Of a DNA stretch of 32,000 bases, positions 7,766-32,000 are shown piece after piece (position 1 is the stretch's first letter; each line of letters opens with the position of its first letter). The notes under the pieces were generated by a model that worked only from the letters and a program-made list of their open reading frames with translations, did no database searches and was not told the origin of the DNA. Location of the stretch: contig OX638341.1 in assembly GCA_951812965.1 (NCBI GenBank), positions 570,438-602,437 of the forward strand. The letters run 5' to 3'. The stretch comes from an uncultured Pseudohongiella sp. GTDB taxonomy: Bacteria; Pseudomonadota; Gammaproteobacteria; Pseudomonadales; Pseudohongiellaceae. The position numbers and the translations under genes are program-made.

Positions 7766-7781
7766 GTTCATGGGTTTTCCT
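7766..7781. repeat. Target-site duplication, right copy (gttcatgggttttcct)
   Basis: Identical to 6366-6381. Confidence 0.8.
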
Positions 7782-18381: not shown

Positions 18382-19214
18382 TGAGCGCCGCGAAGAATCC
18401 TGGCGATTCGAGACTGCGCCGGTGGCTGCATGTCGGCTTCTGCGCCGCGGTGCTGTTTTTCCTGGTGGCGCCGGTGCTGGTGGTGATTCCGCTCAGTTTC
18501 AACGCCGAGCCCTATTTCACTTTTACCGAGGGCATGTTGCGGCTGGATCCGGACGCCTGGTCCCTGCGCTGGTATCGCAATGTGTTGGAAGAAGGCCGCT
18601 GGCTGCCGGCGCTGGGCAAGAGCCTGACAATCGGCATTGCCGCCACCGTGATAGCCACGACGCTTGGCACGCTGGCGGCGCTCGGCCTGAGCAGCCCGGC
18701 GATGCCGGGACGTGGAATGGTGACGGCCCTGCTGATTTCGCCAATGGTGACGCCGATCATCATCACCGCGGCCGGCATGAGCTTCTTCTACTCCGACATG
18801 GGGCTCGGGCAGACCTATACGGCGCTGATACTGGCCCATGCGGTGCTCGGCGCGCCTTTCGTGGTGATCTCGGTCAGCGCGAGCCTCAGCGGCTACAATC
18901 ACGATCTTAATCGAGCGGCGGCCAATCTCGGCGCCAACGGCTGGACAACCTTGCGCCGAGTGCAACTACCGCTGATCGCGCCCGGCGTGTTCACGGGCGC
19001 CTTGTTCGCCTTTGCGGCCTCATTCGACGAAGTGGTCGTGGTGCTGTTCATCGGCGGGCCGGAGCAACGCACCATCCCGCGCGAGATGTGGGCGGGCATC
19101 CGCGAACAAATCAGTCCGGAAATCCTGGCCGTAGCCACCTTCCTCATCGTCTTCGCCATCCTGCTGCTGGCCGCCGTCAACTGGCTCCGCCAGCGCGATT
19201 ATGTGCGAGCCTGA
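18381..19214 (+). CDS. ABC importer permease, PotC-like
   Basis: 277 aa, six predicted TMs, EAA loop LNRAAANLGANGWTTLRRVQLPL. Its start shares one nucleotide with the upstream stop (TGATG). Confidence 0.9.
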   Translation: MSAAKNPGDSRLRRWLHVGFCAAVLFFLVAPVLVVIPLSFNAEPYFTFTEGMLRLDPDAWSLRWYRNVLEEGRWLPALGKSLTIGIAATVIATTLGTLAALGLSSPAMPGRGMVTALLISPMVTPIIITAAGMSFFYSDMGLGQTYTALILAHAVLGAPFVVISVSASLSGYNHDLNRAAANLGANGWTTLRRVQLPLIAPGVFTGALFAFAASFDEVVVVLFIGGPEQRTIPREMWAGIREQISPEILAVATFLIVFAILLLAAVNWLRQRDYVRA

Positions 19215-20206
19215 TCCGACGCCTCCCTCTGCCCTGAATCCGCTTTCCGGGCGTGGACGATGAAGCCCGGCGTGAAAATGCCGAGTTCGCCCGCCTCGAC
19301 CAGGCTGTCCGCCGCCAAATTAAGCAACTCCGCCGCTTCGCTGGCGCCTTGGGGGAGTACGCGCAATTTCTCTAGGGTTTTTGTCAACGCCGCGGTAACT
19401 CGGCGGCCCGCCGGAATTCTCGCCAACGAAGTCAATGACAAATCGCGCGACTGAAGTCCCATGTACCACGGGCTCCGCGAATCCCATTCCTCGTGCTGGT
19501 CGATGGTGGCCGCGACCTGGAAACCCGCTGCGCGAATTGCTTCGACCTGCTCGCCGGTCCGCAACAGCTTGCCTAGCATGTTGCCCTTCTCTATCCCCGC
19601 GCGCGCGGCGCGATGACTCTCCACGGCATCATCGTAGCGATCCGTCAGACACCAGTCGATCACCACAATCTCGCCGCCGGGCTTGAGCAGCCGGTATAGC
19701 TCGCGAAAGACCGGTTCCTTATCCGGCGCATGACAGATTGCCTCGAACGAGTACATGGCGTCGAAAGAGTCGTCAACCATCGGCACGTCCATGAAATCCG
19801 CGTGAAGGAACCGGCAGGTCTCCGTCAGCCCCGATTTACGAAGCAGCTTTTTGCCGCGCGCGACCTGTTCGCCACTGATGTTGATCCCCGTGATGCTCGC
19901 GCCCGTCGTCTTGGCGATAGTAACCATTGGGCCGCCGATGCCGCAGCCCAAATCCGCGACCTCCATTCCGGCTTTGAGAGAGAGCATTGCGCCGATGAAG
20001 GCTTCCTGGCGTTGGTGCGAATCGGCGAGGCTCTCTCCCGGCATGCGCGGCGAGAAATGGAACGAGGATCCCCAGGCGAATTCGTAAAACGGAGTGACCT
20101 GTCTGTAATAGCGCCTGACGAGCGCGAAGTGCTCGCGGTTGCGTCGCATGCCCGGGCTTGAATCGTTCGTTCCCGCCAATCCCTTCTGCGTATCCAGGTG
20201 GCTCAT
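19199..20206 (-). CDS. Sterol C-24 methyltransferase-like SAM-dependent methyltransferase (SMT/ERG6 family), copy B
   Basis: 335 aa. FYEFAWGSSFHF (compare ERG6 YEYGWGSSFHF), SAM site VADLGCGIGGP, YSFEAICHAP (compare IEATCHAP), LKPGGEIV. A C-terminal region ends GIFTPGFIVHARKA, resembling the Sterol_MT_C tail. The comparison with ERG6 is from memory. Confidence 0.75.
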   Translation of the reverse strand: MSHLDTQKGLAGTNDSSPGMRRNREHFALVRRYYRQVTPFYEFAWGSSFHFSPRMPGESLADSHQRQEAFIGAMLSLKAGMEVADLGCGIGGPMVTIAKTTGASITGINISGEQVARGKKLLRKSGLTETCRFLHADFMDVPMVDDSFDAMYSFEAICHAPDKEPVFRELYRLLKPGGEIVVIDWCLTDRYDDAVESHRAARAGIEKGNMLGKLLRTGEQVEAIRAAGFQVAATIDQHEEWDSRSPWYMGLQSRDLSLTSLARIPAGRRVTAALTKTLEKLRVLPQGASEAAELLNLAADSLVEAGELGIFTPGFIVHARKADSGQREASDQART

Positions 20207-22229: not shown

Positions 22230-24227
22230 CTATTCGAAAACAGCTTCATTGGCGCGGGCTATGTCCATGTAGGCGTTCTTGAAGCCTGGCAGCAGGTAAC
22301 CTTCGCTGATGAGTTTGTCGGTGGCGGCTTCGTATTTTTGCAGGTAATCGTCGAAGGACTGGTACAGGCCCGCGACCGAGTTGCGCAGGTCGCCGGATTG
22401 CACCGCCGCGGCGGTATTGGTCGGGAACGGAATGTAGCCGCCGGCGAGCCGGGCCAGGGAGCGCTCGGCGCCGGTTGCGGGGGCGCGCAGGTTCCACGGG
22501 GTGAAAGTCGCCAGGGGGACTGCCGTCAGGGGCGGCAGCACGGTGCTTTCAGTGAAGTCGTTGTTGTCGGAATTTACCGCCGGCGCCAGCGCTCCGTACA
22601 GGTGGTCGGAAGACTGCGGATGCCGGTCCACGATGCGTTCGCTGTTCCAGCGCGGACCATATTCGGCATGAGCCGGACGGTAGAGCGCCTCAGGATGATT
22701 CACGCCGCGTAACGGAGTCCAGACCGCGCGATTGATGCGGCCGTCTACGTGGGAAGGCGCCAGCGTGCCGTCGGCGATGCGCGGATAGCGTGATTCGGGC
22801 GGCTCCTCGCCTTCCGCTACCCAGCGATACATGGCAACGAGCAGGGAATCGGCTATCGGCGCCCACAAGTTCGGATTCCTCGGCAATTGCGTATTGGCGT
22901 CTTCGCGCGGCGTTCCATTGCCCGAACCGTGCTGGGAGCCACCGATGGTGTAGAAACGCACGTTCGGCGGAATATATGCGTCTTCGCTGCCGTCGGGTGT
23001 GGTATGCGGCAGCGAGCCCGCGCGCACCCAGTATTCGTTTGAAGTCTGGACGTGGAACACCATCGGCGCCGTGCCGCTGGCCCTGGCGCGGCGCAGGATG
23101 CCGTCGTTGCGGCCGGTCCATGGGTCGGTGCTTTCGCCATAAGTAAAGGGGAACAGATCGTTCGGGTACAGGTGATTGGAATGTTGTCCGTTGGTGCGGG
23201 TGGGCATGGCGAAGCGGAGGTTGAACATGCCGTAGCCACCGCCGGCGATCACCGGAATTACGCCGTCGAAAACCTTGCGCGATTCGAGATCGGCATTGAA
23301 TCCGTCGTACATGAATTGCCGCAACAGCCGCCCGCTCTGGGAATTGCCCCAGGCCACAGTGTGTTCGATGTCGACCAGGCCGAGTTGCGCCAGTTGTTCC
23401 TCGCCTTCACCTCCATACCGCATGAGCGGTACGAGATCGCGGATCGCGGCCATACCGGCGCCCGCAAGCACCGGGTCCCGGGCCTCGTAAACAAGCTCGT
23501 AGATCATGCCGGGCTCGAAGCCGCCGTCCAGCGCGAGGTTGACGATGGGCTGACTGCTGTCCGGCTCGTCGACGACCGACAGCTCAAAACGCGAACGTTC
23601 GATCGGGATGCGCGCATCGGTCTGGTATTGCCGCCGGTTGAGGCTTGCTTCGCGCAGGCCGCGCTCGGTCGGCGCATAGGCCAGATGTCCGCTGCCGGCG
23701 ATATTTACCTCGTCCGCCGGGCTGTTGACGATGACCTCGTAGCGGACGTCGCCGGTTATGAGATCGTCAGCCGAGCCGACGACGGGGGCGTGCAGGCGCA
23801 GGCGACTTGGTCCCGGCGTGATTTCGTTGATCCAGCCGGTGACGAGATAAGTGAAGCCGAGGCCGGCCAGCGGATGATCGAAGGAAATTTCCGGCGCGAC
23901 CCGCGAGCCGCCGCGGTTATTGACGTTGTATAACAGGCCGCCGTTGGCGATGTCCGCCGAGGGCGCCAGCACCCTGAAGTCGGCGGAATACTCGACCATG
24001 CCTTCGCCGTTGCGCGGCGCGTAGGCGATGTCGGCGATCATGGCGTTGCCCGAATGATCCGGGTCCAGGCTCAGGTAAAGCACGCCTTCGATCACATCGT
24101 AAGTGAAATCGTGTCCTGCGCTCGAAAGCGTTTCGCGGCTGGTGATTTCGATGCGGTCGACACCGGCGAAAGTAATCGACGGCAACAGCAGGAAAAGGAA
24201 AACAAGCAGGCGCGGCAGACTCGTCAT
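22230..24227 (-). CDS. Secreted alpha/beta-hydrolase-domain protein of unknown function (Abhydrolase_10-like large family)
   Basis: Signal peptide MTSLPRLLVFLFLLLPSITFAG. N-terminal VDRIEITSRE...LDPDHSGNAMIADIAYAPRNGEGMVEYSADFRVLAP...GGLLYNVNNRG. Candidate nucleophile elbow WGNSQSGRLLRQFMYDGFN. I prefer the ATG at 24227 (GGAG with 8 nt spacing) over the GTG at 24236. Confidence 0.65.
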   Translation of the reverse strand: MTSLPRLLVFLFLLLPSITFAGVDRIEITSRETLSSAGHDFTYDVIEGVLYLSLDPDHSGNAMIADIAYAPRNGEGMVEYSADFRVLAPSADIANGGLLYNVNNRGGSRVAPEISFDHPLAGLGFTYLVTGWINEITPGPSRLRLHAPVVGSADDLITGDVRYEVIVNSPADEVNIAGSGHLAYAPTERGLREASLNRRQYQTDARIPIERSRFELSVVDEPDSSQPIVNLALDGGFEPGMIYELVYEARDPVLAGAGMAAIRDLVPLMRYGGEGEEQLAQLGLVDIEHTVAWGNSQSGRLLRQFMYDGFNADLESRKVFDGVIPVIAGGGYGMFNLRFAMPTRTNGQHSNHLYPNDLFPFTYGESTDPWTGRNDGILRRARASGTAPMVFHVQTSNEYWVRAGSLPHTTPDGSEDAYIPPNVRFYTIGGSQHGSGNGTPREDANTQLPRNPNLWAPIADSLLVAMYRWVAEGEEPPESRYPRIADGTLAPSHVDGRINRAVWTPLRGVNHPEALYRPAHAEYGPRWNSERIVDRHPQSSDHLYGALAPAVNSDNNDFTESTVLPPLTAVPLATFTPWNLRAPATGAERSLARLAGGYIPFPTNTAAAVQSGDLRNSVAGLYQSFDDYLQKYEAATDKLISEGYLLPGFKNAYMDIARANEAVFE

Positions 24228-24323
24228 GGCGGTCACTCCACAATATTCGGAAGAGAATCAGTAGAACGGCCCGATCATTTCAAAGCCGGATTACTTGGTC
24301 AAGACTGGGCCCGCCTTCAGCAT

Positions 24324-24351
24324 GTAGGGGCGAGGCATGCCTCGCCCCTAC
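24324..24351. repeat. REP-like palindrome copy R6, full 28-bp perfect palindrome (gtaggggcgaggcatgcctcgcccctac)
   Basis: It lies between the DUF1499 gene's stop and the hydrolase gene's start, and carries both gtag and ctac flanks. Confidence 0.9.
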
Positions 24352-24379
24352 AATCTTGCATGTATCTGAACCTGAAGAG

Positions 24380-25120
24380 TCAGCGCGCGTCCTCGACGCG
24401 GCCGATGATTTCGAATATGCGTTCGGCATTGGCGCCGAGATCGACTACTCCGACTCGCGATACCGAGCGGACGTCCATGCGGGTGCCGGCGTCCGTTTCA
24501 CGCAGCCTGACCACGAGATCGTCCTTGAAACCGAACCAGAACGTCGTTGCAATTGCCTCGATTTCGCCCTGCTCCGGATCCTCGCGCACGAGTTCGAGCC
24601 CCATGTCGATGAGAACGCCACGGACGAGTTCGAACATTTCGTCCCGCGGCAAATCCATGTCCAGCGGCCCCAGGTCAGGATAGCCTTCGCGTTGCAAGGG
24701 GCCGATCGTTTCACTGTCGTAGAAGAGCGGGTTATCGCCTTCGCCGCGCAGCGACGCGACCACGGTGAACTCGGGAGGATCCTCGATATCCGTACTCACG
24801 TTGTGAATCGGAGCCACGGTAAACGCCGACGCCACCGCAACGCCAAGATAGGTAGCCGCCAGCAGGGAAATCGCGGCGCCCGGCGCCGCCAGCGGCGGGC
24901 GCTCACCAGCCTTCCTGTGGCGCACCAGGGCGATGACGCCCAGAATCAGGCCGACAATTCCCATAACCAGGCCCAGGGGCGCGAGCAGCAATCCGATGCC
25001 GAAAGACCACAGGCCAATGCGAGTGCCGAGCCCGCCGAGCACGGGAAGGAGAATTGCGAGCAGGCCGAGCCCCAAAGAGAACGAGGCGAGCTTGCTTCTT
25101 TTCGATGATATCTGGTTCAC
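24380..25120 (-). CDS. DUF1499-domain membrane protein
   Basis: N-terminal TM helices, then the DUF1499-type C-terminus (FKDDLVVRLRETDAGTRMDVRSVSRVGVVDLGANAERI). I prefer the GTG at 25120, preceded by GAGGAG with 6 nt spacing. The longer track ORF (to 25153) would translate REP copy R7. Confidence 0.75.
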   Translation of the reverse strand: MNQISSKRSKLASFSLGLGLLAILLPVLGGLGTRIGLWSFGIGLLLAPLGLVMGIVGLILGVIALVRHRKAGERPPLAAPGAAISLLAATYLGVAVASAFTVAPIHNVSTDIEDPPEFTVVASLRGEGDNPLFYDSETIGPLQREGYPDLGPLDMDLPRDEMFELVRGVLIDMGLELVREDPEQGEIEAIATTFWFGFKDDLVVRLRETDAGTRMDVRSVSRVGVVDLGANAERIFEIIGRVEDAR

Positions 25121-25142
25121 ACGGGTCTCCTCGAACGATTCC

Positions 25143-25166
25143 GGGCGACGCATGCGTCGCCCCTAC
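25143..25166. repeat. REP-like palindrome copy R7, variant core (gggcgacgcatgcgtcgccc + ctac)
   Basis: Same compensated variant as R5. It lies between the EamA gene's stop and the DUF1499 gene's start. Confidence 0.85.
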
Positions 25167-25195
25167 ATGACAGGTCATTTTATGCCAGGGTGGGC

Positions 25196-26158
25196 CTAGT
25201 CCGCATGGGGCGTGACAATGTGCGCGGGAAGATCTTCATCCTTCGTCCTGGGCACGATGGCGGTCAAGGCGGAACCGAGCACCAGCACCATGGCGCCGCC
25301 GATGGAAATCCAGCCCAGCCGATCCGAAAACGCATAGTCCGGGTTCACGAGCACCACAAGTTTCAGCGAGCTGATGGTGAACAACGGGGCCAGCGCCAGC
25401 ACCGCGCTGACCTTGGACGCATCCCAGCATTTCAGCGCTTCGGCGAAGCAGCCGTAAGCGATCACGGTATTCAGGCAGGCGAAGGCAAGCAGGCCGTATT
25501 GCAGGTTACTCAGGCCGAAAAGCGAGCCGGGGTTGATAAAAGGCAACAGCACCAGCGCGGAAAACATGTAAATAAGCGATAAAATCTGCGCGGAGCTGAA
25601 CTCGGAATGGAGCTTCTTCTGCAATAAGGCATAGATCGTCCAGCCAACCGCCGACGCCACCACGATCAGCACGCCGATGGTCTGCGCGTTTTCCGGATCG
25701 AGCAGTTCCAGCAGTCGATCGTGAAAAAACAGCGCAAGGCCGACTACGATCAGCGCCGTTCCCAGTTTCTGGGCGATGGTGAATGGCTCTTGGTAGAACA
25801 CCACGCCGCCGAAGATCAGGAACAGCGTTGTCAACTGGATGACGGCTTCGGCGGTTTCTCCGTTGACGAAATTCAGGGAGACGCTGAACAGGTAATAATT
25901 GCTGCATAGTCCGACAGCGGCCAGCAGCAGCCACCAGCCGGCGCCGTTGACAAATTGCCGGGGCGTCGGCAAGCGCCCGAGCCATGCCAGCCAGGGGAGC
26001 AGAATCGCCGCCGCGACCAGGAAGCGGTACCAGACTATGGTCTGGGCATCCATGCCGAGCAGCAACTCTTTCAGAGTTACCGGCAGCATCCCCCACATGC
26101 CGGCCGCCACCAGGGATAAAAAGAATCCGGCGACGGGATTTCTCGCTTGGTTTTCCAT
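25196..26158 (-). CDS. DMT-superfamily transporter (EamA/RhaT-like, 10 TM)
   Basis: 320 aa, uniformly hydrophobic, with two EamA-like halves (LLSLVAAGMWGMLPV..., ...ASAVGWTIYALLQKKL...). Confidence 0.85.
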   Translation of the reverse strand: MENQARNPVAGFFLSLVAAGMWGMLPVTLKELLLGMDAQTIVWYRFLVAAAILLPWLAWLGRLPTPRQFVNGAGWWLLLAAVGLCSNYYLFSVSLNFVNGETAEAVIQLTTLFLIFGGVVFYQEPFTIAQKLGTALIVVGLALFFHDRLLELLDPENAQTIGVLIVVASAVGWTIYALLQKKLHSEFSSAQILSLIYMFSALVLLPFINPGSLFGLSNLQYGLLAFACLNTVIAYGCFAEALKCWDASKVSAVLALAPLFTISSLKLVVLVNPDYAFSDRLGWISIGGAMVLVLGSALTAIVPRTKDEDLPAHIVTPHAD

Positions 26159-26204
26159 GCAGTCTTGCGGATTCCCGGAATCCCCTCATTCAGGCCGGGG
26201 CAGA

Positions 26205-27407
26205 CTATCGCCCCAGGTTTTCGTAGATAACGACATTGCGCGTAGCCGAACCGATAGCGGCCAGGTCGATATCTCCATCACCGTCCATATCGGCCGCCGC
26301 GAGGCCGGATACCGCCACCCCGGCATCCAGGTTTTCGCGGCGCCAGCGTTCTGCGCGGTCGTCGTATTGATAAATTGCCAGTTGGTGCGGTTCGGAACGG
26401 CCGCCGGCGATGATTTCGTCGACGCCGTCGTTGTCGAGGTCCGCCGTGATCAGGCCATGGCCGCCGGCAATACTGTCATCGATTTCAATCCGGTTCCAGG
26501 GAAATTCACCGCCCTGGTAAACCACCACCTGGTTGCCGTGCCAGGGTTCTACCGTGGCGACATAGCGGCCGCCGGGAAAGTTTCCGACGTCTACTTCACT
26601 TGAGCCGATATTGGGCCGTTCCGGACCTTGCAGACCCTCGCCGATCTGTGTCTTTGCCACCGCCTGCCCATTGGTCGCGAGCTGGAACAGATGCACGCCG
26701 CCGAAACTCGCCGTCAGCAGGTCTTCCCGGCCGTCGCCGTCCCAGTCCACGCTGCTCATGCCGTGCGACAATTCCAGGCTGTGGTCGAGGACCACGCCGT
26801 TCCAACTCTCTACCGTTAAATCCTGCGGCACGGGATAGGACTTCAATTGCAGGCCGACATCGTAAAGCGGCCCGCTTGCGCCGATGCCGATAATTGGCAG
26901 GTTAACCAATTCCTGGCTGCCATCGCCGTTCACATCGGCCCAGCGAATTCGGTGAGACGTCGGAATCTCGTCGATGTAATGCGCCGGCCATTCTTCGTTG
27001 GCCATGGGGTCACCGGGATTCTCCATCCAGTGAATCACACCGCCGCCGGTGGAATTGCCGAGGCTGAAATCGTGCGCCAGCGCCAGGTCCGTGTCGCCGT
27101 CGCCGTCGATGTCCAGCGGCGCACTGGAGATGTTGCCCTGCATGGTCGAAGTGACCGCGTATTTGTCCCAATCCGGATTGCGGAACCAGGCCAGTTGCCC
27201 CGGGTTGGTCGCCCAGGCGACGACGTCGGTCAGGCCGTCGCCGTCGATATCGGCGAAATCCACGCCGTAACCGCCCTGGAATTCGGTGTCCAGCACCCGC
27301 CGCTCGAATTCCGGTAAATCCTGAGCTGCGGTCCCGGCGGCCACAAAAAGCACGGCAACGGCGCCCAACGCCCGGAAGCGGAAGCTGAAATTACTGATTT
27401 CCCTCAT
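26205..27407 (-). CDS. Secreted FG-GAP / VCBS repeat protein (beta-propeller)
   Basis: Repeated calcium-binding-type motifs: DIDGDGLTDVV, DIDGDGDTDLA, DVNGDGSQELV, DWDGDGREDLL, DLDNDGVDEII, DMDGDGDIDLA. I prefer the ATG at 27407, which gives the signal peptide MREISNFSFRFRALGAVAVLFVAAGTAAQ. Confidence 0.8.
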   Translation of the reverse strand: MREISNFSFRFRALGAVAVLFVAAGTAAQDLPEFERRVLDTEFQGGYGVDFADIDGDGLTDVVAWATNPGQLAWFRNPDWDKYAVTSTMQGNISSAPLDIDGDGDTDLALAHDFSLGNSTGGGVIHWMENPGDPMANEEWPAHYIDEIPTSHRIRWADVNGDGSQELVNLPIIGIGASGPLYDVGLQLKSYPVPQDLTVESWNGVVLDHSLELSHGMSSVDWDGDGREDLLTASFGGVHLFQLATNGQAVAKTQIGEGLQGPERPNIGSSEVDVGNFPGGRYVATVEPWHGNQVVVYQGGEFPWNRIEIDDSIAGGHGLITADLDNDGVDEIIAGGRSEPHQLAIYQYDDRAERWRRENLDAGVAVSGLAAADMDGDGDIDLAAIGSATRNVVIYENLGR

Positions 27408-27492
27408 GCCCGGAGCACCATTCGCAGTATCGATTCGGAAGGGCGAATCAAGGTACTGCCAATTCCACCGCAAAGCAAACGCTTTCCGGGCT

Positions 27493-28038
27493 TCAGCCCA
27501 TGTGGCGCGAGAACCGGGCCTTGAGGAAGTCCATCTGGTCGGCGAGCACGTTGTGATTGGTCAGATAGAGAAACTCGTACTGATTAGGCACGAAAGGAAT
27601 CGCGAGCAATTGCATGCCTGCTTCTTCCGGCGTGCGGTCGGCCTTGTGGTTGTTGCAGCGGCGGCAGGAAGTCACGACATTGGTCCAGCGATCCCGCCCG
27701 CCCCGGGACAAGGGCAACACGTGGTCGCGCGAAAGATCGGCGCTCGCGTGTTCATTGCCGCAATACATGCACAGATTCTGGTCACGGCGGAAAAGGATGC
27801 TGTTTTCCAGCGGCGGCTGGTACTGGTCCCGATGCACCTTGCCTTCGCAGGCCACGATGCTCGGCAGCCTGAGAACGGAGCGCTCGCCGAGCCGGTTGTA
27901 GCCGCCGCGAATTTCGAGCACGGCCACACCCATCGACCAGATAACCATTTCCTTGACGATGAGCGTGGCGGTCTCTTCCCGCGTCAGCCAGGCCACGGGC
28001 GAACCGGCCTTGTTTAACCGCAGTACTTTAGCGTTCAT
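27493..28038 (-). CDS. HNH endonuclease, stand-alone
   Basis: 181 aa. HNH core: CMYCG...DLSRDHVLPLSRGGRDRWTNVVTSCRRCNNHKADRTPEEA. AAGGA lies 8 nt before the ATG. Confidence 0.85.
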   Translation of the reverse strand: MNAKVLRLNKAGSPVAWLTREETATLIVKEMVIWSMGVAVLEIRGGYNRLGERSVLRLPSIVACEGKVHRDQYQPPLENSILFRRDQNLCMYCGNEHASADLSRDHVLPLSRGGRDRWTNVVTSCRRCNNHKADRTPEEAGMQLLAIPFVPNQYEFLYLTNHNVLADQMDFLKARFSRHMG

Positions 28039-28079
28039 GCAGAAATCCTTGTCGCGAGTGCAAAGCCAGGCTCAAGCTG

Positions 28080-28108
28080 AATATCGGCTTGAACGCGGTG
28101 GATTGTAA
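28080..28108 (-). promoter_or_regulatory. Candidate sigma70 promoter of the HNH gene (TTACAA, 17 nt spacer, GATATT)
   Basis: On the minus strand, the -35 is at 28108-28103 and the -10 at 28085-28080, about 40 nt upstream of the ATG at 28038. Hexamer match only. Confidence 0.3.
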
Positions 28109-28149
28109 CCTCCCCCCACGCTTTGTCGAGGTCTAAGGAAAATTAACCC

Positions 28150-28262
28150 GTCGCCGTCGGGTCAGGGGAAGTGCAGCGGACGCCGTCAATACGTCCGTGT
28201 AGGCTTCGGGCTCGGCGTCCTGCCTCGCACGCCCGCTGCACTTCCCCTGACCCGACGGCGAC
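28150..28262. repeat. 113-bp element with perfect 30-bp terminal inverted repeat
   Basis: Left arm 28150-28179 is gtcgccgtcgggtcaggggaagtgcagcgg. Right arm 28233-28262 is ccgctgcacttcccctgacccgacggcgac, its exact reverse complement. The 53-nt centre contains a further 8-bp stem, ggacgccg / cggcgtcc (28178-28185 and 28213-28220). Confidence 0.9.
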
Positions 28263-28410
28263 TCACGTTGTGCAGGCCCTTCATACTGTCATTCTGCGCG
28301 TAGCAAAGCGAAGTCGCAGAATCTCCCCTCCCTGGCGCCTGGACTGTGCAGGCTGTTGCTGTTCCGGTTAGGCTTGCCCTCGTATGGGTTGAACTCAAGC
28401 GGGAGGTTTC

Positions 28411-29307
28411 ATGAAAGGGGATATTGAGAAGCGTGACGAACCCTTGCTGTTGATCGGGGATCGGCTTTCGATCGGAACCTTGCTGCGTGTGTTCCGCTTC
28501 AAGATCGTTGTCACATGGACGTTGACCACGCTGGAAACCGCGATGCTCGCCTTTTTCCCGCTGCTGATGGGGCGCTCGATCGACGGCTTGCTGGGTGACG
28601 AATACACGGCCTTTTATCAACTCATCGCGGCCATGGCGGTACTGATCGTCGTGGCGACCGGGCGGCGCGTGTACGACACGCGCGCTTACGGCTCGATGCG
28701 GGTCGCGCTGGGCCGGGCCCAGGCGCATCGCGCCGGGGAGGAAGCGGTTTCGGTCACCAATGCGCGTGTGCTCATGGGGCGCGAACTGGTGGATTTTCTG
28801 GAAGAGGAGGCGCCGCTTTCGATAACGGGGCTGATTCAGGTCGTCGTCGCCATCGCGGTGCTGTTCAGCTTTCACGGCCTGCTGGCCCTTGCCGCCAGTA
28901 TCGCGGCCGCCGTCATGCTGGGAATTTACGGCCTTTCGGCGCGCCGCTTTTTCACGCTGAATTCCGATCTGAACGAGCAGACCGAGGCGCAGGTCGCAAC
29001 GCTGGAAAGCCGGGACCTGAGCAAGGTTACGGCGCATCTCGTCGGGCTGCGCCGGCACGAGGTGCGGCTGTCGGACACCGAATCCGTGGTCTACGCGCTG
29101 ATTTTCATCGCCCTGCTGACGATGCTGGGTTTCAATCTCTGGTTCGCGGCGACACAGACCGGCGCGACTCCCGGCGAGATATTCTCCATCGTCACCTATT
29201 CCTACGAGTTCATCCAGATGTCGGTAATCCTGCCGATGGCCTTGCAGAATCTGACCCGCCTGGCGGAAATCACCGAACGCATCAACAAGGCGCGGCCGGC
29301 AACCTGA
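28411..29307 (+). CDS. ABC-exporter-type six-transmembrane domain protein lacking an ATPase domain
   Basis: 298 aa. It has the ABC_membrane-like layout: TM1 and TM2 early, an intracellular helical stretch (YDTRAYGSMRVALGRAQ...), then TM3-6. No Walker motifs. GGGAGG lies 4 nt before the ATG. Confidence 0.7.
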   Translation: MKGDIEKRDEPLLLIGDRLSIGTLLRVFRFKIVVTWTLTTLETAMLAFFPLLMGRSIDGLLGDEYTAFYQLIAAMAVLIVVATGRRVYDTRAYGSMRVALGRAQAHRAGEEAVSVTNARVLMGRELVDFLEEEAPLSITGLIQVVVAIAVLFSFHGLLALAASIAAAVMLGIYGLSARRFFTLNSDLNEQTEAQVATLESRDLSKVTAHLVGLRRHEVRLSDTESVVYALIFIALLTMLGFNLWFAATQTGATPGEIFSIVTYSYEFIQMSVILPMALQNLTRLAEITERINKARPAT

Positions 29308-29419
29308 AACGCAAATCCGCAATTCCCGCGACGTCTCGCCGGATACCGGCGTTACGGCTGAAAACCGCATCGCGGATTGCACTTTCAATTGCAAATGATA
29401 TTCTTGTCCGCATGTATAG

Positions 29420-29611
29420 ATGACCGTGTTTCTGGACGCCAATCCGCTGGTGTACGCGCAAGGCAAGGATACCAAGACCGAGATAGGCCGCCAGATCGTT
29501 CTGCAAGGCGGCGTCATCGGTTCGCGAGCGCCGGATGAGTTCATGAGCGTGCAGCGGCGCAAGTTCAAGGACGGTATTTCCGCCGTTCTCCCGGTGGACC
29601 TTTCCGGCTGA
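29420..29611 (+). pseudogene. N-terminal fragment of a PIN-domain (VapC-like) gene, 63 codons
   Basis: MTVFLDANPLVYAQGKD...GGVIGSRAPDEFMSVQRRKF matches the first half of PIN toxins: the first acidic residue in FLDAN and the second in PDEF. The C-terminal half with the remaining acidic residues is absent. There is no SD and no antitoxin gene upstream. Its stop overlaps the next ATG. Confidence 0.5.
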
Positions 29612-30132
29612 TGCCGCTGACTTCCCCGTACTCTGACGAAGCGCTGGATCACCGCGCGAAACCGGATCCGCTCGACGATCTGATTCGCGCCAGTCCGCCC
29701 CATGAGCGGCTGGTCTCCCGGGCCACCACCGCCGCCATCGCCGTCTTCCTGGTTGGGGCGCTCTTCGCGCCGATCAGGTTCTCGACCGTCATACCCGTCA
29801 TAGCCACGGACCGGGGACAAACGATTGCCGACGCCGGACGGATGCCGTTGCGGGTGGACGTCGCGAGTCTCGATGACGCCTCGCGAAACGCGCTCGCGAT
29901 CCTGTCGCCCGGCGCCGCGGTTACGCTGGTCGGCGATGCCGGGATTGCCGACGGCCGCCTGTTGAGCGTTTCCGCCGCCTCCGCCGGCAACGTCACGATC
30001 GATGTCCGGCTCTCGCCTTCGGCCGAGTTCGAGGTTGCGCCGACGAACCGTGCGGTGCTGCGTATTCCCGCCGGCAGCCGCAGCGTCGCCGCTGCATTGG
30101 CCGGACTCGCCTTGCGAACGGCGTTCGAGTAG
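29611..30132 (+). CDS. Minimal HlyD-like (membrane-fusion / bacteriocin secretion adaptor-like) protein
   Basis: 173 aa. The N-terminus SDEALDHRAKPDPLDDLIRASPPHERL followed by one TM resembles the N-termini of NHLP/bacteriocin-system HlyD proteins (EAL....SPE.LD.L......P..W). The C-terminus resembles only the HlyD beta-barrel part (LSPGAAVTLV...GRLLSVS...VLRIPAGSRS). No coiled-coil hairpin is present. Assignment is from memory of family patterns. Confidence 0.45.
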   Translation: MPLTSPYSDEALDHRAKPDPLDDLIRASPPHERLVSRATTAAIAVFLVGALFAPIRFSTVIPVIATDRGQTIADAGRMPLRVDVASLDDASRNALAILSPGAAVTLVGDAGIADGRLLSVSAASAGNVTIDVRLSPSAEFEVAPTNRAVLRIPAGSRSVAAALAGLALRTAFE

Positions 30133-30161
30133 CGCCGAACATTGAAGGAGCGTTAATCCCA

Positions 30162-32000
30162 GTGCGACTTCCCACCGCAAAGTCCGTCGGAAAATGGCTG
30201 CATCGTTGCCGGGACTTCGTCGTTTACTATCGCAAGACGCCTTCCATCCAGCAGATCGCGGTCAGGGAGTGCGGAGCGGCGGCGCTGGGGATCGTGCTGG
30301 CGCACTACGGCCGATGGGTGCCGATCAACGAACTTCGGGTCGCCTGCGGAGTCAGTCGCGACGGCTGCACCGCGGGGGACCTGCGGCAGGCGGCCGACCG
30401 TTTCGGAGTCGACCTGAAAGGCCAAAGACTTCCGTACCGCTACCTGCGCAGCATCCGCACTCCGGCGATCCTGTTCTGGGAGTTCCAGCACTTCTGCGTC
30501 CTGGAGGGGTTTCGCGGCGACGATTTCCTGATCAACGATCCGGCGCAGGGCCACCGCCTGGTGCGCGAAGACGAGTTTGCCAAGTTGTACACCGGGGTCG
30601 TGCTCACGCTCGAGCCGCGCCCGGACTTCGTCCAGGGCGGGCGGCCTCCCAACATTCGCGACAAGCTCTGGCCCTGGTTCCGTCCTCATCGCAGACTGCT
30701 CCTGATTGCCGTTTTTTGTGGCCTGCTCGGTGCGATTCCAACCTTGGCCGTCCCGCTGCTGCTCGGCGCATTCGTCGACTACGCCCAGGCCGGCGCGACT
30801 GCGACCGCGCTCTACATCGTCGGCGCGGTGGCCCTTGCGGCGATCGCCCTTTTCGCTTTTACCTGGCTGCAGCAGCACGTCCTGAACCGGTTGAGCTTGC
30901 GCGTGTCGGTCGAGCAGTCGGCCCGGCTCGTCTCGACACTGCTGCGCCTGCCAAGGGAGTATTTCGCCCAACGCCTTTCCGGCGATGTCGCTTCGCGCAT
31001 CCAACTCGTCAACAACGTTACCGACGAAGGTTCGACGCAGTTGACGGGCATCTTCATCGAGCTGGCGATCAGCGCCGCGCTGTTCGTATGGATGGCGTAC
31101 GCAGATGCGTGGCTGGCAGCCGGAGTGCTCGCGGTGGCGGCCGCGAACGCGGTGGCGGTGCACATGCTGGTCAGGCTGCGCCTGCACGAGAATCACCGGC
31201 TCAGGCAGGAGCAAGGCCGACTGCTCGGCGCCTGCGCCACCGGATTGCGAAGGCTCGACTCGATTCGGGCGTCCGGTACGGAAGCGGCGCTCTTCTCGCG
31301 CTGGACGGGCTATCTGGCCCGCGAACTCGACATTCGGCAACGGTTCGCCGAGTTCGGCGCGGCGATCGCTACGTCCCCGGCTCTGGCACAGGCGATGGGC
31401 GCCGCGGTCATTCTCTATTTCGGGACGATTCGGGTGCTCGGAGGCGAGATGTCTCTCGGCGACCTGACAGCGTACTTCCTGGTGGGCTCCCGCTTTCTCG
31501 TCCCGATCGGCCGCTTCGTCGACGCCGCCGACCGACTCAATGTGCTGGCGGCGGATCTGCAGCGGATCGACGACGTGGGCGGGGCGCCGGCGCCCGCCCT
31601 GCTCCAGGAGAAGTCGGGGCAGCGTCTTGCCGTGTTCCAGCGCAAATTGCGCTTGGCCGGGCGCCTTGAAATCAAGGGGTTGACTTTCGGCTACCGGCGC
31701 TGGGGGGATCCTTTGCTCTCGGACTTCAGCCTGTCGATCGAGCCGGGACAGCGCGTTGCCGTGATCGGATCGAGCGGCTCCGGCAAGTCGACCCTGGCCA
31801 TGCTCGTGGGGGGCTTGTGGGAACCCTGGGCCGGTGAAATCCTGTTCGATGGGGTTTCGCGGGAACAAATCTCGGCTGAAATCATGGCGGACTCCGTGGC
31901 CTTTGTGGACCAGGAGGTTGCCCTGTTTTCCGGAACGGTGCGGGAAAATCTGACGATGTGGAACCACAAGGTGCCCGACGACCTGATCGTCGCCGCCGCC
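30162..32000 (+). CDS. Peptidase-C39 / permease / ATPase ABC exporter (double-glycine peptide, bacteriocin/NHLP-type); the 3' end lies beyond the window
   Basis: Edge-truncated ORF, absent from the supplied track and open for 613 codons from GTG 30162 (GAAGGAG upstream). I translated VRLPTAKSVGKWLHRCRDFVVYYRKTPSIQQIAVRECGAAALGIVLAHYGRWVPINELRVACGVSRDG...ILFWEFQHFCVLEG...LINDPAQG, which gives the C39 Cys, His and Asp contexts. The TMD contains FAQRLSGDVASRIQ. The NBD starts LEIKGLTFGYRR...IEPGQRVAVIGSSGSGKST (Walker A). Listed ORFs 30194-31669 (+) and 30153-31967 (-) are off-frame or antisense shadows. Confidence 0.9.
   Translation, partial: MRLPTAKSVGKWLHRCRDFVVYYRKTPSIQQIAVRECGAAALGIVLAHYGRWVPINELRVACGVSRDGCTAGDLRQAADRFGVDLKGQRLPYRYLRSIRTPAILFWEFQHFCVLEGFRGDDFLINDPAQGHRLVREDEFAKLYTGVVLTLEPRPDFVQGGRPPNIRDKLWPWFRPHRRLLLIAVFCGLLGAIPTLAVPLLLGAFVDYAQAGATATALYIVGAVALAAIALFAFTWLQQHVLNRLSLRVSVEQSARLVSTLLRLPREYFAQRLSGDVASRIQLVNNVTDEGSTQLTGIFIELAISAALFVWMAYADAWLAAGVLAVAAANAVAVHMLVRLRLHENHRLRQEQGRLLGACATGLRRLDSIRASGTEAALFSRWTGYLARELDIRQRFAEFGAAIATSPALAQAMGAAVILYFGTIRVLGGEMSLGDLTAYFLVGSRFLVPIGRFVDAADRLNVLAADLQRIDDVGGAPAPALLQEKSGQRLAVFQRKLRLAGRLEIKGLTFGYRRWGDPLLSDFSLSIEPGQRVAVIGSSGSGKSTLAMLVGGLWEPWAGEILFDGVSREQISAEIMADSVAFVDQEVALFSGTVRENLTMWNHKVPDDLIVAAA

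What the first reader, a model, noticed from the sequence alone, without database searches (positions are those of the whole stretch)
28411..32000. Double-glycine peptide export locus with atypical parts and no visible substrate gene
The C39 domain of the ABC exporter at 30162 onward retains its catalytic contexts: Cys in RECGAAALG, His in FQHFCVLEG and Asp in INDPAQG. A leader-cleaved GG-type peptide substrate (bacteriocin, RiPP or signalling peptide) is therefore expected. No convincing precursor ORF lies in the 2.1 kb upstream. The exporter is instead preceded by a stand-alone six-TM ABC membrane domain, a PIN gene fragment and a 173-aa HlyD-like protein. This architecture is not the classical ABC + roughly 400-aa MFP + precursor/immunity arrangement. 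The locus runs off the window, so precursors, modification enzymes or a second ABC subunit may lie downstream.
Basis: partly seen in the sequence, partly recalled or inferred. Interest (0 to 1): 0.7.

Follow-up and report, generated by a model that had tools for sequence, protein, structure and literature searches.

The report
Export end of a peptide-antibiotic gene cluster
The window ends inside the export module of a gene cluster that makes a small modified peptide (NHLP/proteusin type). The "missing" substrate gene lies about 7 kb past the window's end, so this is an uncharacterised variant of a known system and not a new one.

Summary
From 30162 the window encodes an ABC exporter with an intact C39 peptidase (Gln31, Cys37, His110, Asp126). 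No precursor gene lies anywhere in the 32 kb.

The exporter is TIGR03796-like, the cleaving subunit of the NHLP bacteriocin export set. A 98%-identical contig continues the locus. It carries a TIGR03797-like second ABC subunit, a JmjC oxygenase, a disrupted Trp halogenase and a CmcJ-family oxygenase. It then carries a 91-aa NHLP-leader precursor, an RND pump with its adaptor, and two orphan genes.

The 3.4-Mb contig that holds the window's exact proteins also holds a precursor ending ...QVAGAGCDGSTDYAWDC.

The 173-aa gene belongs to the system. It sits directly upstream of the exporter in every related locus. Only its first ~60 residues are homologous to the NHLP-system HlyD (TIGR03794). It has no lipoyl or hairpin domains.

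The stand-alone ABC membrane gene is only a flanking gene. In a relative it keeps the same neighbours, about 190 kb from the cluster.

The "PIN fragment" has no profile support and evolves neutrally.

Verdict: a known kind of system with a truncated adaptor and an uncharacterised tailoring set. Interest is moderate.

The parts
28411..29307 (+). Stand-alone six-TM ABC membrane protein (298 aa, PF13748 ABC_membrane_3). It is a flanking core-genome gene, not part of the export system.
   Evidence: Pfam E 2e-47. At least 368 homologue clusters, about 60% identical in Ruegeria, Kiloniella and Hyphomonas. In relative scaffold_15 it keeps the same left neighbours but is followed by a 172-aa gene, and the RiPP cluster lies about 190 kb away. 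dN/dS 0.13.
29308..29419 (.). Left junction of the ~16.9-kb RiPP cluster segment, relative to the 'empty' site in L027.
   Evidence: blastn homology of L012 to L027 stops at the ABC_membrane_3 stop codon and resumes at L012 20920. Junction alignment. Window-versus-L012 mismatches peak at 28603-29502.
29420..29611 (+). Probably a non-functional remnant at the cluster edge.
   Evidence: No hit in Pfam at E<=10, PDB sequences at E<=10 or PADLOC. Present only in the window/L012/L010 lineage. 5 nonsynonymous and 0 synonymous changes versus L012; dN/dS 1.11 versus L010.
29611..30132 (+). 173-aa single-pass membrane protein. Its N-terminal ~60 residues are homologous to the N-terminus of the NHLP-system HlyD (TIGR03794), followed by a small beta-rich domain. 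Proposed truncated adaptor or accessory subunit of the exporter.
   Evidence: 21 homologues, all about 171-182 aa apart from one 221-aa sequence whose extra N-terminal residues align to nothing. Always directly upstream of ABC1. Profile search and hhalign to TIGR03794-positive proteins: 95% and 94% probability over residues 4-66. AF2 model pLDDT 70, with no lipoyl domain or hairpin. dN/dS 0.16-0.40.
30162..32000 (+). ABC1: peptidase-permease-ATPase exporter, TIGR03796-like. First 613 of 738 residues; runs off the window.
   Evidence: TIGR03796 585.6 bits for the partial protein. The full-length near-identical orthologue of contig NODE_431 scores 816.1 bits, next family 331. P0201 on the 3.4-Mb contig has the window-specific residues at the three sites where the window differs from NODE_431.
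30237..30623 (+). C39 double-glycine peptidase domain (residues 26-154). Gln31 30252-30254, Cys37 30270-30272, His110 30489-30491, Asp126 30537-30539.
   Evidence: Pfam PF03412 E 2.3e-31. Alignment to LahT150 6mpz E 8e-33. Codon positions.
30699..31478 (+). Transmembrane domain of ABC1 (residues 180-439).
   Evidence: PF00664 E 3.3e-20.
31716..32000 (+). Start of the nucleotide-binding domain of ABC1, with Walker A GSSGSGKST at 31767-31793. Cut by the window end.
   Evidence: PF00005 E 1.1e-14, profile positions 1-80 of 137. Motif position.

Best explanation
Window 29308-32000 is the 5' end of a ~17-kb biosynthetic gene cluster for a ribosomally made, post-translationally modified peptide (RiPP) with a nitrile-hydratase-like leader (NHLP/proteusin type). 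The host is an uncultured gammaproteobacterium.

Proposed mechanism:
1. The precursor is about 91 aa. It has a ~79-aa NHLP leader and a 12-aa core, GCDGSTDYAWDC in the window's own genome.
2. The core is tailored by a JmjC-type oxygenase and a CmcJ/NvfI-type oxygenase. Two conserved orphan proteins may also act on it, and in some relatives a flavin-dependent Trp halogenase does too.
3. The C39 domain of ABC1 (Cys37/His110/Asp126) removes the leader after a Gly-Gly, Gly-Ala or Ala-Gly site. This site has Val at -4, Met or Leu at -7 and Leu at -12.
4. ABC1 pairs with ABC2, a TIGR03797-like subunit that lacks a peptidase domain, and the pair pumps the core across the inner membrane.
5. The 173-aa protein is a cut-down version of the usual HlyD-type adaptor. 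It keeps the cytoplasmic tail and membrane anchor that contact the ABC transporter. It has lost the lipoyl and alpha-hairpin parts that reach an outer-membrane channel.
6. The AcrB-type RND pump and its adaptor, encoded in the cluster, may therefore carry the peptide from the periplasm across the outer membrane, or give self-protection.

Shown here: gene content, family assignments, synteny, presence of the precursor in the same genome, and intact catalytic residues.
Inferred: the cleavage register, the heterodimer, the role of the 173-aa protein and the role of the RND pump.

The ABC_membrane_3 gene and the 63-aa ORF play no part.
For: Exporter identity:
- C39, TMD and NBD are present, and TIGR03796 is the best family by a wide margin.
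- The catalytic residues align with LahT150.

Downstream continuation:
- Contig NODE_431 is 98% identical to window 22243-32000.
- It continues with ABC2 (TIGR03797, 660.8 bits) and JmjC_2. It also carries a CmcJ/NvfI oxidoreductase (157.9 bits, cutoff 80) and an NHLP precursor (TIGR03793, 55.1 bits, cutoff 50.9).
- An RND pump and RND_mfp follow.

Same genome as the window:
- The 3,425,201-nt contig holds the window's exact 173-aa, 298-aa, 63-aa and HNH proteins.
- It also holds the full-length ABC1 (P0201) and members at >=90% identity of ABC2, JmjC, CmcJ, AcrB, the RND adaptor and both orphan proteins.
- Its precursor is P0245.

Conservation:
- The same gene set recurs in at least 7 further lineages, in varying order. 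The most distant has ABC1 at 60% and p173 at 35% identity.
- Across nine distinct precursor sequences (ten with a frameshifted second copy in L030), leaders are conserved and cores vary. The eight closer ones fit C-x0-3-D-G-x3-Y-x-[WYF]-D-C, and the distant L033 core is DQDYLYDD.
- V-4, M/L-7 and L-12 fit the C39 recognition rule stated in PMC12537861.
- ABC1 and p173 are under purifying selection.

Adaptor and cell envelope:
- The p173 N-terminus is homologous to the TIGR03794 N-terminus.
- The organism has an outer membrane: the window encodes a TonB-dependent receptor.
Against: - Adjacency of the precursor to the exporter in the window's own genome rests on a 98%-identical contig and on shared contig membership. 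It was not read directly, because the 3.4-Mb contig could not be fetched.
- ABC1 (816.1 versus 853.3 bits) and ABC2 (660.8 versus 709.4 bits) fall just below the NCBIfam equivalog cutoffs.
- The C-terminal two-thirds of p173 has no significant sequence or fold match. The best Foldseek E-value is 0.02, and adaptor beta-barrels appear only among weak generic hits. Its adaptor role is therefore an inference.
- A full-length TIGR03794 adaptor could be encoded elsewhere in the genome.
- One relative (L008) has no precursor within 10 kb, and the halogenase is disrupted in NODE_431. Parts of the cluster can therefore decay.
- No expression or product data exist.
Confidence: 0.85

Rival explanations
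1. The four genes form one atypical exporter. The stand-alone ABC membrane domain supplies an extra membrane subunit to the C39 exporter, with the PIN fragment and the 173-aa protein as further parts.
For: All four ORFs are co-oriented and closely spaced. ABC_membrane_3 has no nucleotide-binding domain of its own.
Against: ABC_membrane_3 is absent from every other instance of the cluster. In scaffold_15 it lies about 190 kb from the cluster with the same left-hand neighbours as in the window. Relative to that site, the cluster is a 16.9-kb insertion right after its stop codon. The family is far more widespread than the cluster. A proper second ABC subunit, ABC2, is encoded downstream.
Confidence: 0.04
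2. The 173-aa protein is not a transport adaptor. It is an immunity or self-protection protein, or an unrelated small membrane protein that merely travels with the exporter.
For: No Pfam or NCBIfam family matches it. No significant fold match exists. Small single-pass proteins next to bacteriocin exporters are often immunity proteins (general knowledge).
Against: Its N-terminal 55-63 residues align with TIGR03794-positive proteins at 94-95% hhalign probability. These include the conserved PDPLDDL-R motif and the membrane anchor. It occupies the position and orientation of the adaptor gene, 29 nt upstream of ABC1, in all lineages, down to 35% identity. It is well conserved while the cores vary.
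Confidence: 0.2
3. The locus is a decaying remnant. The exporter and its neighbours are no longer a working system in this genome.
For: The halogenase is split in NODE_431. A neutrally evolving 63-aa ORF sits at the edge. A second precursor copy is frameshifted in L030. L008 lacks a nearby precursor.
Against: ABC1, p173 and ABC_membrane_3 show dN/dS 0.13-0.40. The catalytic triad, Walker A and a full-length ORF are intact. The precursor, both oxygenases, ABC2, the RND pump and both orphan genes are present as full-length genes on the 3.4-Mb contig.
Confidence: 0.08

Closest known systems
NHLP/Nif11 three-gene export cassette: TIGR03794 (HlyD-like), TIGR03796 (ABC with peptidase), TIGR03797 (ABC without peptidase). 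Haft, Basu & Mitchell 2010, PMC2887384
   Same: ABC1 and ABC2 have TIGR03796 and TIGR03797 as their best families by about 480 and 360 bits. They are adjacent and co-oriented, and a TIGR03793 NHLP precursor is linked.
   Different: No protein reaches TIGR03794. A 173-aa protein that shares only the first ~60 profile positions takes its place. ABC1 and ABC2 score slightly below the equivalog cutoffs. ABC2 carries about 270 extra N-terminal residues with no match. An RND pump is part of the cluster.
LahT / PCAT1 / ComA peptidase-containing ABC transporters (solved structures 6mpz, 4ry2, 3k8u)
   Same: C39 fold signature, Gln/Cys/His/Asp catalytic set, and a leader with hydrophobic residues at -4, -7 and -12 before a GG-type site (PMC12537861).
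   Different: Those act as homodimers or isolated domains. Here a heterodimer with a peptidase-less partner is expected. The predicted site in this lineage is G-A rather than G-G (inference).
NHLP + 'cupin-4' RiPP gene-cluster families noted in sponge microbiomes (Loureiro et al. 2022, PMC9426513)
   Same: An NHLP precursor occurs together with a PF08007 enzyme, from uncultured marine bacteria. PF08007 is called JmjC_2. From memory, this family was formerly named Cupin_4. The cluster here is probably one of these families.
   Different: That paper only lists the families and gives no product, core motif, transporter anatomy or enzyme function. Identity with the cluster here was not tested.
srp proteusin clusters of sponge symbionts (SrpE, SrpC, SrpI; PMC10858898)
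   Same: NHLP leader, a short core ending near a Trp, and a flavin-dependent halogenase in some members. Some contigs carry sample labels beginning NGUY21-1, possibly the same metagenome series (inference from the label only).
   Different: srp has a YcaO cyclodehydratase and an LCCCW core. Here there is no YcaO, the core is C-D-G-x3-Y-x-W-D-C, and there are two Fe/2OG-type oxygenases plus two orphan proteins.
Type I secretion and colicin V-type systems with a full-length HlyD/CvaA adaptor and TolC
   Same: The N-terminal cytoplasmic tail plus single membrane anchor of the adaptor is retained.
   Different: There is no lipoyl domain and no coiled-coil hairpin, so direct docking to an outer-membrane channel is unlikely.
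CzlI, the JmjC-family peptide hydroxylase of the curacozole RiPP pathway (PMC11575548)
   Same: A JmjC/cupin Fe/2OG enzyme encoded in a RiPP cluster. Both are related to YxbC (1vrb).
   Different: The enzyme here is closer to the ribosomal oxygenases NO66, MINA53 and YcfD (E 5e-14). Its substrate residue is unknown.

Membership tests
Peptidase-containing ABC transporter (PCAT/AMS) | N-terminal C39 domain with catalytic Cys, His and Asp and the oxyanion Gln | tested here: met
   PF03412 E 2.3e-31. Gln31, Cys37, His110 and Asp126 lie in stretches that align with 6mpz.
Peptidase-containing ABC transporter (PCAT/AMS) | Six-helix type-1 exporter TMD followed by a complete NBD | tested here: met
   PF00664 and PF00005 in the window. 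The full-length 738-aa orthologue of NODE_431 aligns to TIGR03796 positions 1-709 of 710, and the 3.4-Mb contig has a matching 738-aa protein, P0201.
TIGR03796 NHLM_micro_ABC1 (equivalog) | Score at or above the curated cutoff of 853.3 bits | tested here: not met
   816.1 bits for the full-length near-identical orthologue and 585.6 bits for the truncated window product. It is the best family by far, with the next at 331 bits.
TIGR03796/TIGR03797 NHLP export pair | Adjacent peptidase-less partner ABC subunit (TIGR03797) | tested here: inconclusive
   The partner is present directly downstream in NODE_431 and in all relatives. It scores 660.8 bits against a cutoff of 709.4.
NHLP three-gene export cassette (Haft 2010) | HlyD-like adaptor reaching TIGR03794 (cutoff 156.2 bits) | tested here: not met
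   No NCBIfam hit for the 173-aa protein at E<=0.1. The only adaptor in the cluster is RND-type, TIGR01730.
NHLP three-gene export cassette (Haft 2010) | Linked precursor with an NHLP leader (TIGR03793, cutoff 50.9 bits) | tested here: met
   55.1 bits in NODE_431, and 58.2, 53.2 and 51.5 bits in relatives. Precursor P0245 is on the contig that holds the window's exact proteins. It is not inside the window itself.
HlyD / membrane-fusion protein (173-aa protein) | N-terminal cytoplasmic segment plus single membrane anchor of the TIGR03794 type | tested here: met
   hhalign gives 95% and 94% probability to P0070 and P0073. These proteins hit TIGR03794 positions 1-112 and 1-60 at E 3.7e-27 and 9e-10.
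HlyD / membrane-fusion protein (173-aa protein) | Lipoyl (barrel-sandwich) domain and alpha-helical hairpin | tested here: not met
   No HlyD_3, HlyD_D23 or Biotin_lipoyl hit even at E<=10. The AF2 model shows one TM helix and a ~100-residue beta domain with no hairpin. Foldseek finds no hit at E<=0.001.
PIN-domain nuclease (63-aa ORF) | Match to a PIN profile, with ~130 aa carrying the conserved acidic residues | tested here: not met
   No Pfam hit at E<=10. No hit in PDB sequences at E<=10 or in PADLOC. No similarity to the real PIN gene of L027. Only 63 aa. dN/dS about 1.
PF13748 ABC_membrane_3 (298-aa protein) | Score above the gathering threshold of 27 bits, with no NBD | tested here: met
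   162.1 bits, profile positions 5-236 of 237, and no ABC_tran domain.
Proteusin / NHLP-type RiPP biosynthetic cluster | NHLP precursor with a conserved leader and variable core, clustered with tailoring enzymes | tested here: met
   Nine distinct precursor sequences, ten with a frameshifted second copy in L030. They sit next to a CmcJ-family and a JmjC oxygenase in all lineages. Chemistry was not tested.

The most novel reading that the evidence does not exclude
The cluster makes a structurally new class of short NHLP-derived peptides. The motif is ...D-G-x3-Y-x-[W/Y/F]-D-C, tailored by a JmjC and a CmcJ-type oxygenase plus two proteins with no known relatives. It is exported by a two-step route: a heterodimeric peptidase-ABC pump with a minimal 173-aa adaptor delivers the peptide to the periplasm, and a cluster-encoded RND pump expels it. 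This would be a secretion arrangement not described for NHLP peptides, and it would replace the canonical TIGR03794 adaptor.
Probability: 0.3. Interest if true: 0.6.

Novelty: new variant of a known kind. Interest (0 to 1): 0.4.

Why it matters
The apparent puzzle is resolved: the exporter's substrate gene is simply beyond the window. This ties an orphan-looking exporter to a complete and widely conserved RiPP cluster whose product is unknown.

Two points could be followed up.

1. The adaptor. In an organism with an outer membrane, the usual ~420-aa HlyD-type adaptor of the NHLP export set is replaced by a 173-aa protein that keeps only the anchor module, and an RND pump is encoded in the cluster. 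This gives a testable model of how such peptides cross two membranes.

2. The chemistry. The tailoring set (JmjC oxygenase, CmcJ-type oxygenase, two proteins without any family, optional Trp halogenase) and the invariant Tyr-x-aromatic-Asp core motif point to peptide chemistry not yet described. NHLP + 'cupin-4' families were noted in sponge microbiomes in 2022 (PMC9426513) but never dissected.

If neither point holds up, this is one more NHLP bacteriocin cluster.

Tried and rejected
- Source contig. Exact look-ups of the window's 298-aa and 173-aa proteins, and of P0001 and P0046, found no indexed contig. The 3.4-Mb source contig could therefore not be read. The 98%-identical NODE_431 and cluster membership tables were used instead.
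- GTDB genome scans. A scan with the JmjC protein found nothing. A scan with ABC1 found only remote ABC matches, so no named genome with this cluster was obtained.
- Orphan proteins. The 336-aa family, with only near-identical sequences allowed, gave an unusable model of pLDDT 36.5. Its only hint is a weak match to squalene-cyclase-like proteins, E about 0.01. The 360-aa family has no PDB sequence match.
- PIN reading of the 63-aa ORF. Tested in Pfam, PDB sequences and PADLOC without a hit.
- Second adaptor copy. I considered that the 172-aa gene at the far end of the cluster was a second copy of the 173-aa gene. It is unrelated and is the conserved right-hand flank.
- srp cluster. I considered that this was the srp cluster. 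It is not, because srp has a YcaO enzyme and an LCCCW core.
- Island edges. No tRNA or Rfam family lies in the window. No long direct repeats were found at the edges of the inserted segment.
- Literature. No paper was found on PF13748 function or on this core motif.

Full report
**1. What is in the window**

On the + strand there are four ORFs:
- 28411-29307, 298 aa
- 29420-29611, 63 aa
- 29611-30132, 173 aa. Its start overlaps the previous stop by one base (TGATG).
- An ORF from GTG 30162 that runs off the window after 613 codons.

Pfam assigns the last ORF Peptidase_C39 (E 2.3e-31), ABC_membrane (E 3.3e-20) and a truncated ABC_tran. They correspond to Cys37, His110 and Asp126, with the oxyanion-hole Gln31 six residues before the Cys.

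The closest solved protein is LahT150, the double-glycine protease domain (6mpz, E 8e-33). The ECGAA, HF-VL-GF and INDPA stretches line up with it. PCAT1 and ComA also match. The C39 domain is therefore intact and not a degenerate C39-like domain.

NCBIfam puts the exporter in TIGR03796, the cleaving subunit of the NHLP bacteriocin export set. The truncated product scores 585.6 bits and the next family 210.

An HMM built from the family's own precursors finds nothing in any frame of the 32-kb window. The observation, including 'no visible substrate gene', is confirmed.

**2. What lies beyond the window**

The HNH protein encoded just upstream (27493-28038, - strand) led to ENA contig NODE_431. 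This 60-kb contig is 98% identical to window 22243-32000. A longer view of it is locus L012, where L012 position = window position - 25302.

After ABC1 (738 aa; TIGR03796 816.1 bits, cutoff 853.3), the contig carries these genes:
- ABC2, 965 aa. TIGR03797 660.8 bits (cutoff 709.4), with no peptidase domain and about 270 unmatched N-terminal residues.
- A JmjC_2/Cupin_8 protein, 503 aa.
- A Trp halogenase split into two ORFs.
- On the opposite strand, a CmcJ/NvfI-family oxidoreductase (NF041278, 157.9 bits).
- On the opposite strand, a 91-aa ORF that passes the NHLP-leader model TIGR03793 (55.1 bits, cutoff 50.9).
- An AcrB-type RND pump.
- An RND adaptor (TIGR01730, 160.5 bits).
- Two genes of 360 and 336 aa with no family.

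The precursor would lie about 7.2 kb past the window's end.

The window's own genome could not be fetched. Cluster tables nevertheless show that one 3,425,201-nt contig holds the window's exact 173-aa, 298-aa, 63-aa and HNH proteins. The same contig holds:
- a full-length ABC1 (P0201), which has the window-specific residues at the three sites where the window differs from NODE_431;
- members at >=90% identity of ABC2, JmjC, CmcJ, AcrB, the RND adaptor and both orphan genes;
- a precursor, P0245, ending ...ELTGEEMSQVAGAGCDGSTDYAWDC.

**3. The cluster is a conserved unit**

The gene set comprises the NHLP precursor, CmcJ, JmjC, the 360-aa and 336-aa families, the 173-aa protein, ABC1 and ABC2. 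It usually also includes an RND pump and adaptor, and sometimes an intact 500-aa halogenase. It recurs in at least seven further lineages, in several gene orders. This includes a distant one with ABC1 at 60% and p173 at 35% identity.

There are nine distinct precursor sequences, ten counting a frameshifted second copy in L030. Leaders are nearly invariant. Eight cores fit C-x0-3-D-G-x3-Y-x-[W/Y/F]-D-C at the C-terminus. The most distant version is DQDYLYDD, so Tyr-x-aromatic-Asp is the constant part.

Relative to a GG, GA or AG site, the leaders have Val at -4, Met or Leu at -7 and Leu at -12. This is the pattern reported to direct C39 domains (PMC12537861, citing Bobeica et al. 2019). In this lineage that register predicts cleavage after G-A, giving a 12-residue core. 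This is an inference.

**4. The 173-aa protein**

It has only 21 homologues among 5.8 billion clusters. All but one are 171-182 aa. The exception is 221 aa, with extra N-terminal residues that align to nothing. None has a Pfam domain. A profile search of 1.84 billion representatives adds only fragments and a handful of weak hits.

Three of those weak hits are recognised by TIGR03794, the NHLP-system HlyD:
- P0070, 304 aa, E 3.7e-27, profile positions 1-112
- P0073, 159 aa, E 9e-10, positions 1-60
- P0071, 79 aa, E 1.8e-08, positions 2-50

hhalign aligns residues 4-66 of the 173-aa family to P0070 and P0073 at 95% and 94% probability. The aligned region is the cytoplasmic tail with the PDPLDDL-R-SPP motif and the membrane anchor.

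The rest of the protein has no match. The AlphaFold model (pLDDT 70) shows one TM helix, a ~100-residue beta domain and a short C-terminal helix. Foldseek against PDB gives nothing at E<=0.001. Adaptor beta-barrels (MexA, AcrA, MacA, EmrA) appear only among generic weak hits. There is no lipoyl domain and no hairpin.

The gene sits about 29 nt upstream of ABC1 in every lineage and is under purifying selection, with dN/dS 0.16-0.40. I read it as a truncated adaptor or accessory subunit. The homology of the N-terminal module is shown. The function is inferred.

**5. The ABC membrane gene is a neighbour, not a part**

PF13748 proteins of about 290 aa are widespread. There are at least 368 clusters, about 60% identical in Ruegeria, Kiloniella and Hyphomonas. 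They are absent from all other instances of the cluster.

On scaffold_15 of a relative (351,817 nt), the orthologue (85% identical) lies at about 268 kb. It has the same left-hand neighbours as in the window: Abhydrolase_10, DUF1499, EamA, FG-GAP and HNH. It is followed directly by a 172-aa gene. The RiPP cluster lies at 55-76 kb on the same contig.

In NODE_431 that 172-aa gene (95% identical) sits at the far end of the cluster. DNA homology to the 'empty' site stops at the ABC_membrane_3 stop codon and resumes 16.9 kb later. The cluster therefore starts at about window 29308.

No tRNA, integrase or long terminal repeat marks the edges.

**6. The 63-aa ORF**

It is found only in the lineage with this arrangement: the window, NODE_431 and L010/L011. 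It has no hit in Pfam at E<=10, in PDB sequences at E<=10 or in PADLOC. It shows no similarity to a real PIN gene nearby in L027.

It differs from NODE_431 by five nonsynonymous and no synonymous changes, and has dN/dS 1.11 against L010. Apart from a PIN-like look of its first dozen residues (my reading, not a test), nothing supports the label. It is best treated as a non-functional remnant at the junction.

**7. Mechanism**

Shown:
- An intact C39-ABC subunit with a peptidase-less partner.
- A linked NHLP precursor with a proper recognition motif.
- Two Fe/2OG-type oxygenases. The JmjC protein is closest to the protein hydroxylases NO66, MINA53 and YcfD. A JmjC peptide hydroxylase is known from the curacozole pathway (PMC11575548).
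- An organism with an outer membrane, since the window encodes a TonB-dependent receptor.

Inferred:
- The oxygenases, the two orphan proteins and, where intact, the halogenase tailor the core while the leader is attached.
- ABC1 cleaves the leader.
- ABC1/ABC2 export the core with the 173-aa protein as a membrane partner.
- The adaptor lacks the parts that reach an outer-membrane channel. The cluster's RND pump may therefore complete secretion or protect the producer. I put this last step at about 0.3.

**8. Comparison with what is known, and novelty**

The transport genes are the NHLP export set defined by Haft et al. 2010 (PMC2887384), minus a recognisable TIGR03794. ABC1 and ABC2 score just under the equivalog cutoffs.

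The cluster differs from the srp proteusin clusters, which have a YcaO enzyme and an LCCCW core (PMC10858898). It probably corresponds to the NHLP + 'cupin-4' families listed for sponge microbiomes in 2022 (PMC9426513). From memory, Cupin_4 is the former name of PF08007. No product, core motif or transporter anatomy has been reported for them in the papers I could search.

It is a new variant of a known kind and a reasonable genome-mining lead, not a categorically new system.

Names attached to close homologues of the flanking gene and of the JmjC protein say 'Gammaproteobacteria bacterium' MAG.

Noticed in passing
window 28150-28262: A near-perfect inverted repeat lies in the HNH / ABC_membrane_3 intergenic region. 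The arms are 33 nt and 97% complementary, with a 47-nt loop. The spacer is about 200 nt longer here than in relative L027, which lacks the repeat. The repeat is also present in NODE_431 but in none of the other loci fetched. It may be a small inserted element or a bidirectional terminator.
   Followed up: partly
window 28603-29502: Mismatches between the window and the 98%-identical contig are concentrated here: 61 in 900 nt, against about 1% elsewhere. The stretch covers the 3' two-thirds of ABC_membrane_3 and the cluster junction. dS is 0.185 in ABC_membrane_3 against 0.017-0.035 inside the cluster. This suggests a recombination tract at the junction.
   Followed up: partly
window 6382-7766: This segment encodes a 392-aa HTH-domain transposase-like protein (6460-7638). 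It is 99.7% identical to a copy elsewhere on NODE_431 (L001 17818-19201), so it is a repeated insertion sequence.
   Followed up: no
window 19199-20206 (- strand): A 335-aa SAM methyltransferase carries a C-terminal Sterol_MT_C domain (PF08498, E 5.9e-16). A sterol-methyltransferase-like gene is unusual in a bacterium.
   Followed up: no
window 27493-28038 (- strand): A stand-alone 181-aa HNH endonuclease whose best NCBIfam hits are the HNH modules of Cas9d and IscB (E 1.6e-13 and 5.4e-11). It sits next to ABC_membrane_3 in the relative genome too, so it is a stable neighbour and not an obvious mobile element.
   Followed up: partly
L012 18757-19839 and 19862-20872 (orthologues in L002, L006, L008, L010, L030, L033): Two proteins of about 360 and 336 aa are conserved with the cluster in nearly all lineages. 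The 336-aa family is missing from L008. Neither has a Pfam or NCBIfam family. The 336-aa family has only a weak match to squalene-cyclase-like proteins (E about 0.01). They are candidate new RiPP tailoring enzymes.
   Followed up: partly
L012 11534-12788; L030 5444-5757: The Trp halogenase is split into 75-aa and 319-aa ORFs in NODE_431 but is an intact 500-aa gene in L008 and L030. L030 carries a second precursor copy interrupted by a frameshift.
   Followed up: partly
L033 8282-8545 (- strand): In the most distant version of the cluster the core is DQDYLYDD, with no cysteines. The two Cys of the other cores are therefore not essential to the family. Tyr-x-aromatic-Asp is the constant motif.
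   Followed up: no
L012 7107-7930 (ABC2 residues 1-274): The peptidase-less ABC subunit has about 270 N-terminal residues ahead of the region covered by TIGR03797. They have no Pfam or PDB sequence match.
   Followed up: partly
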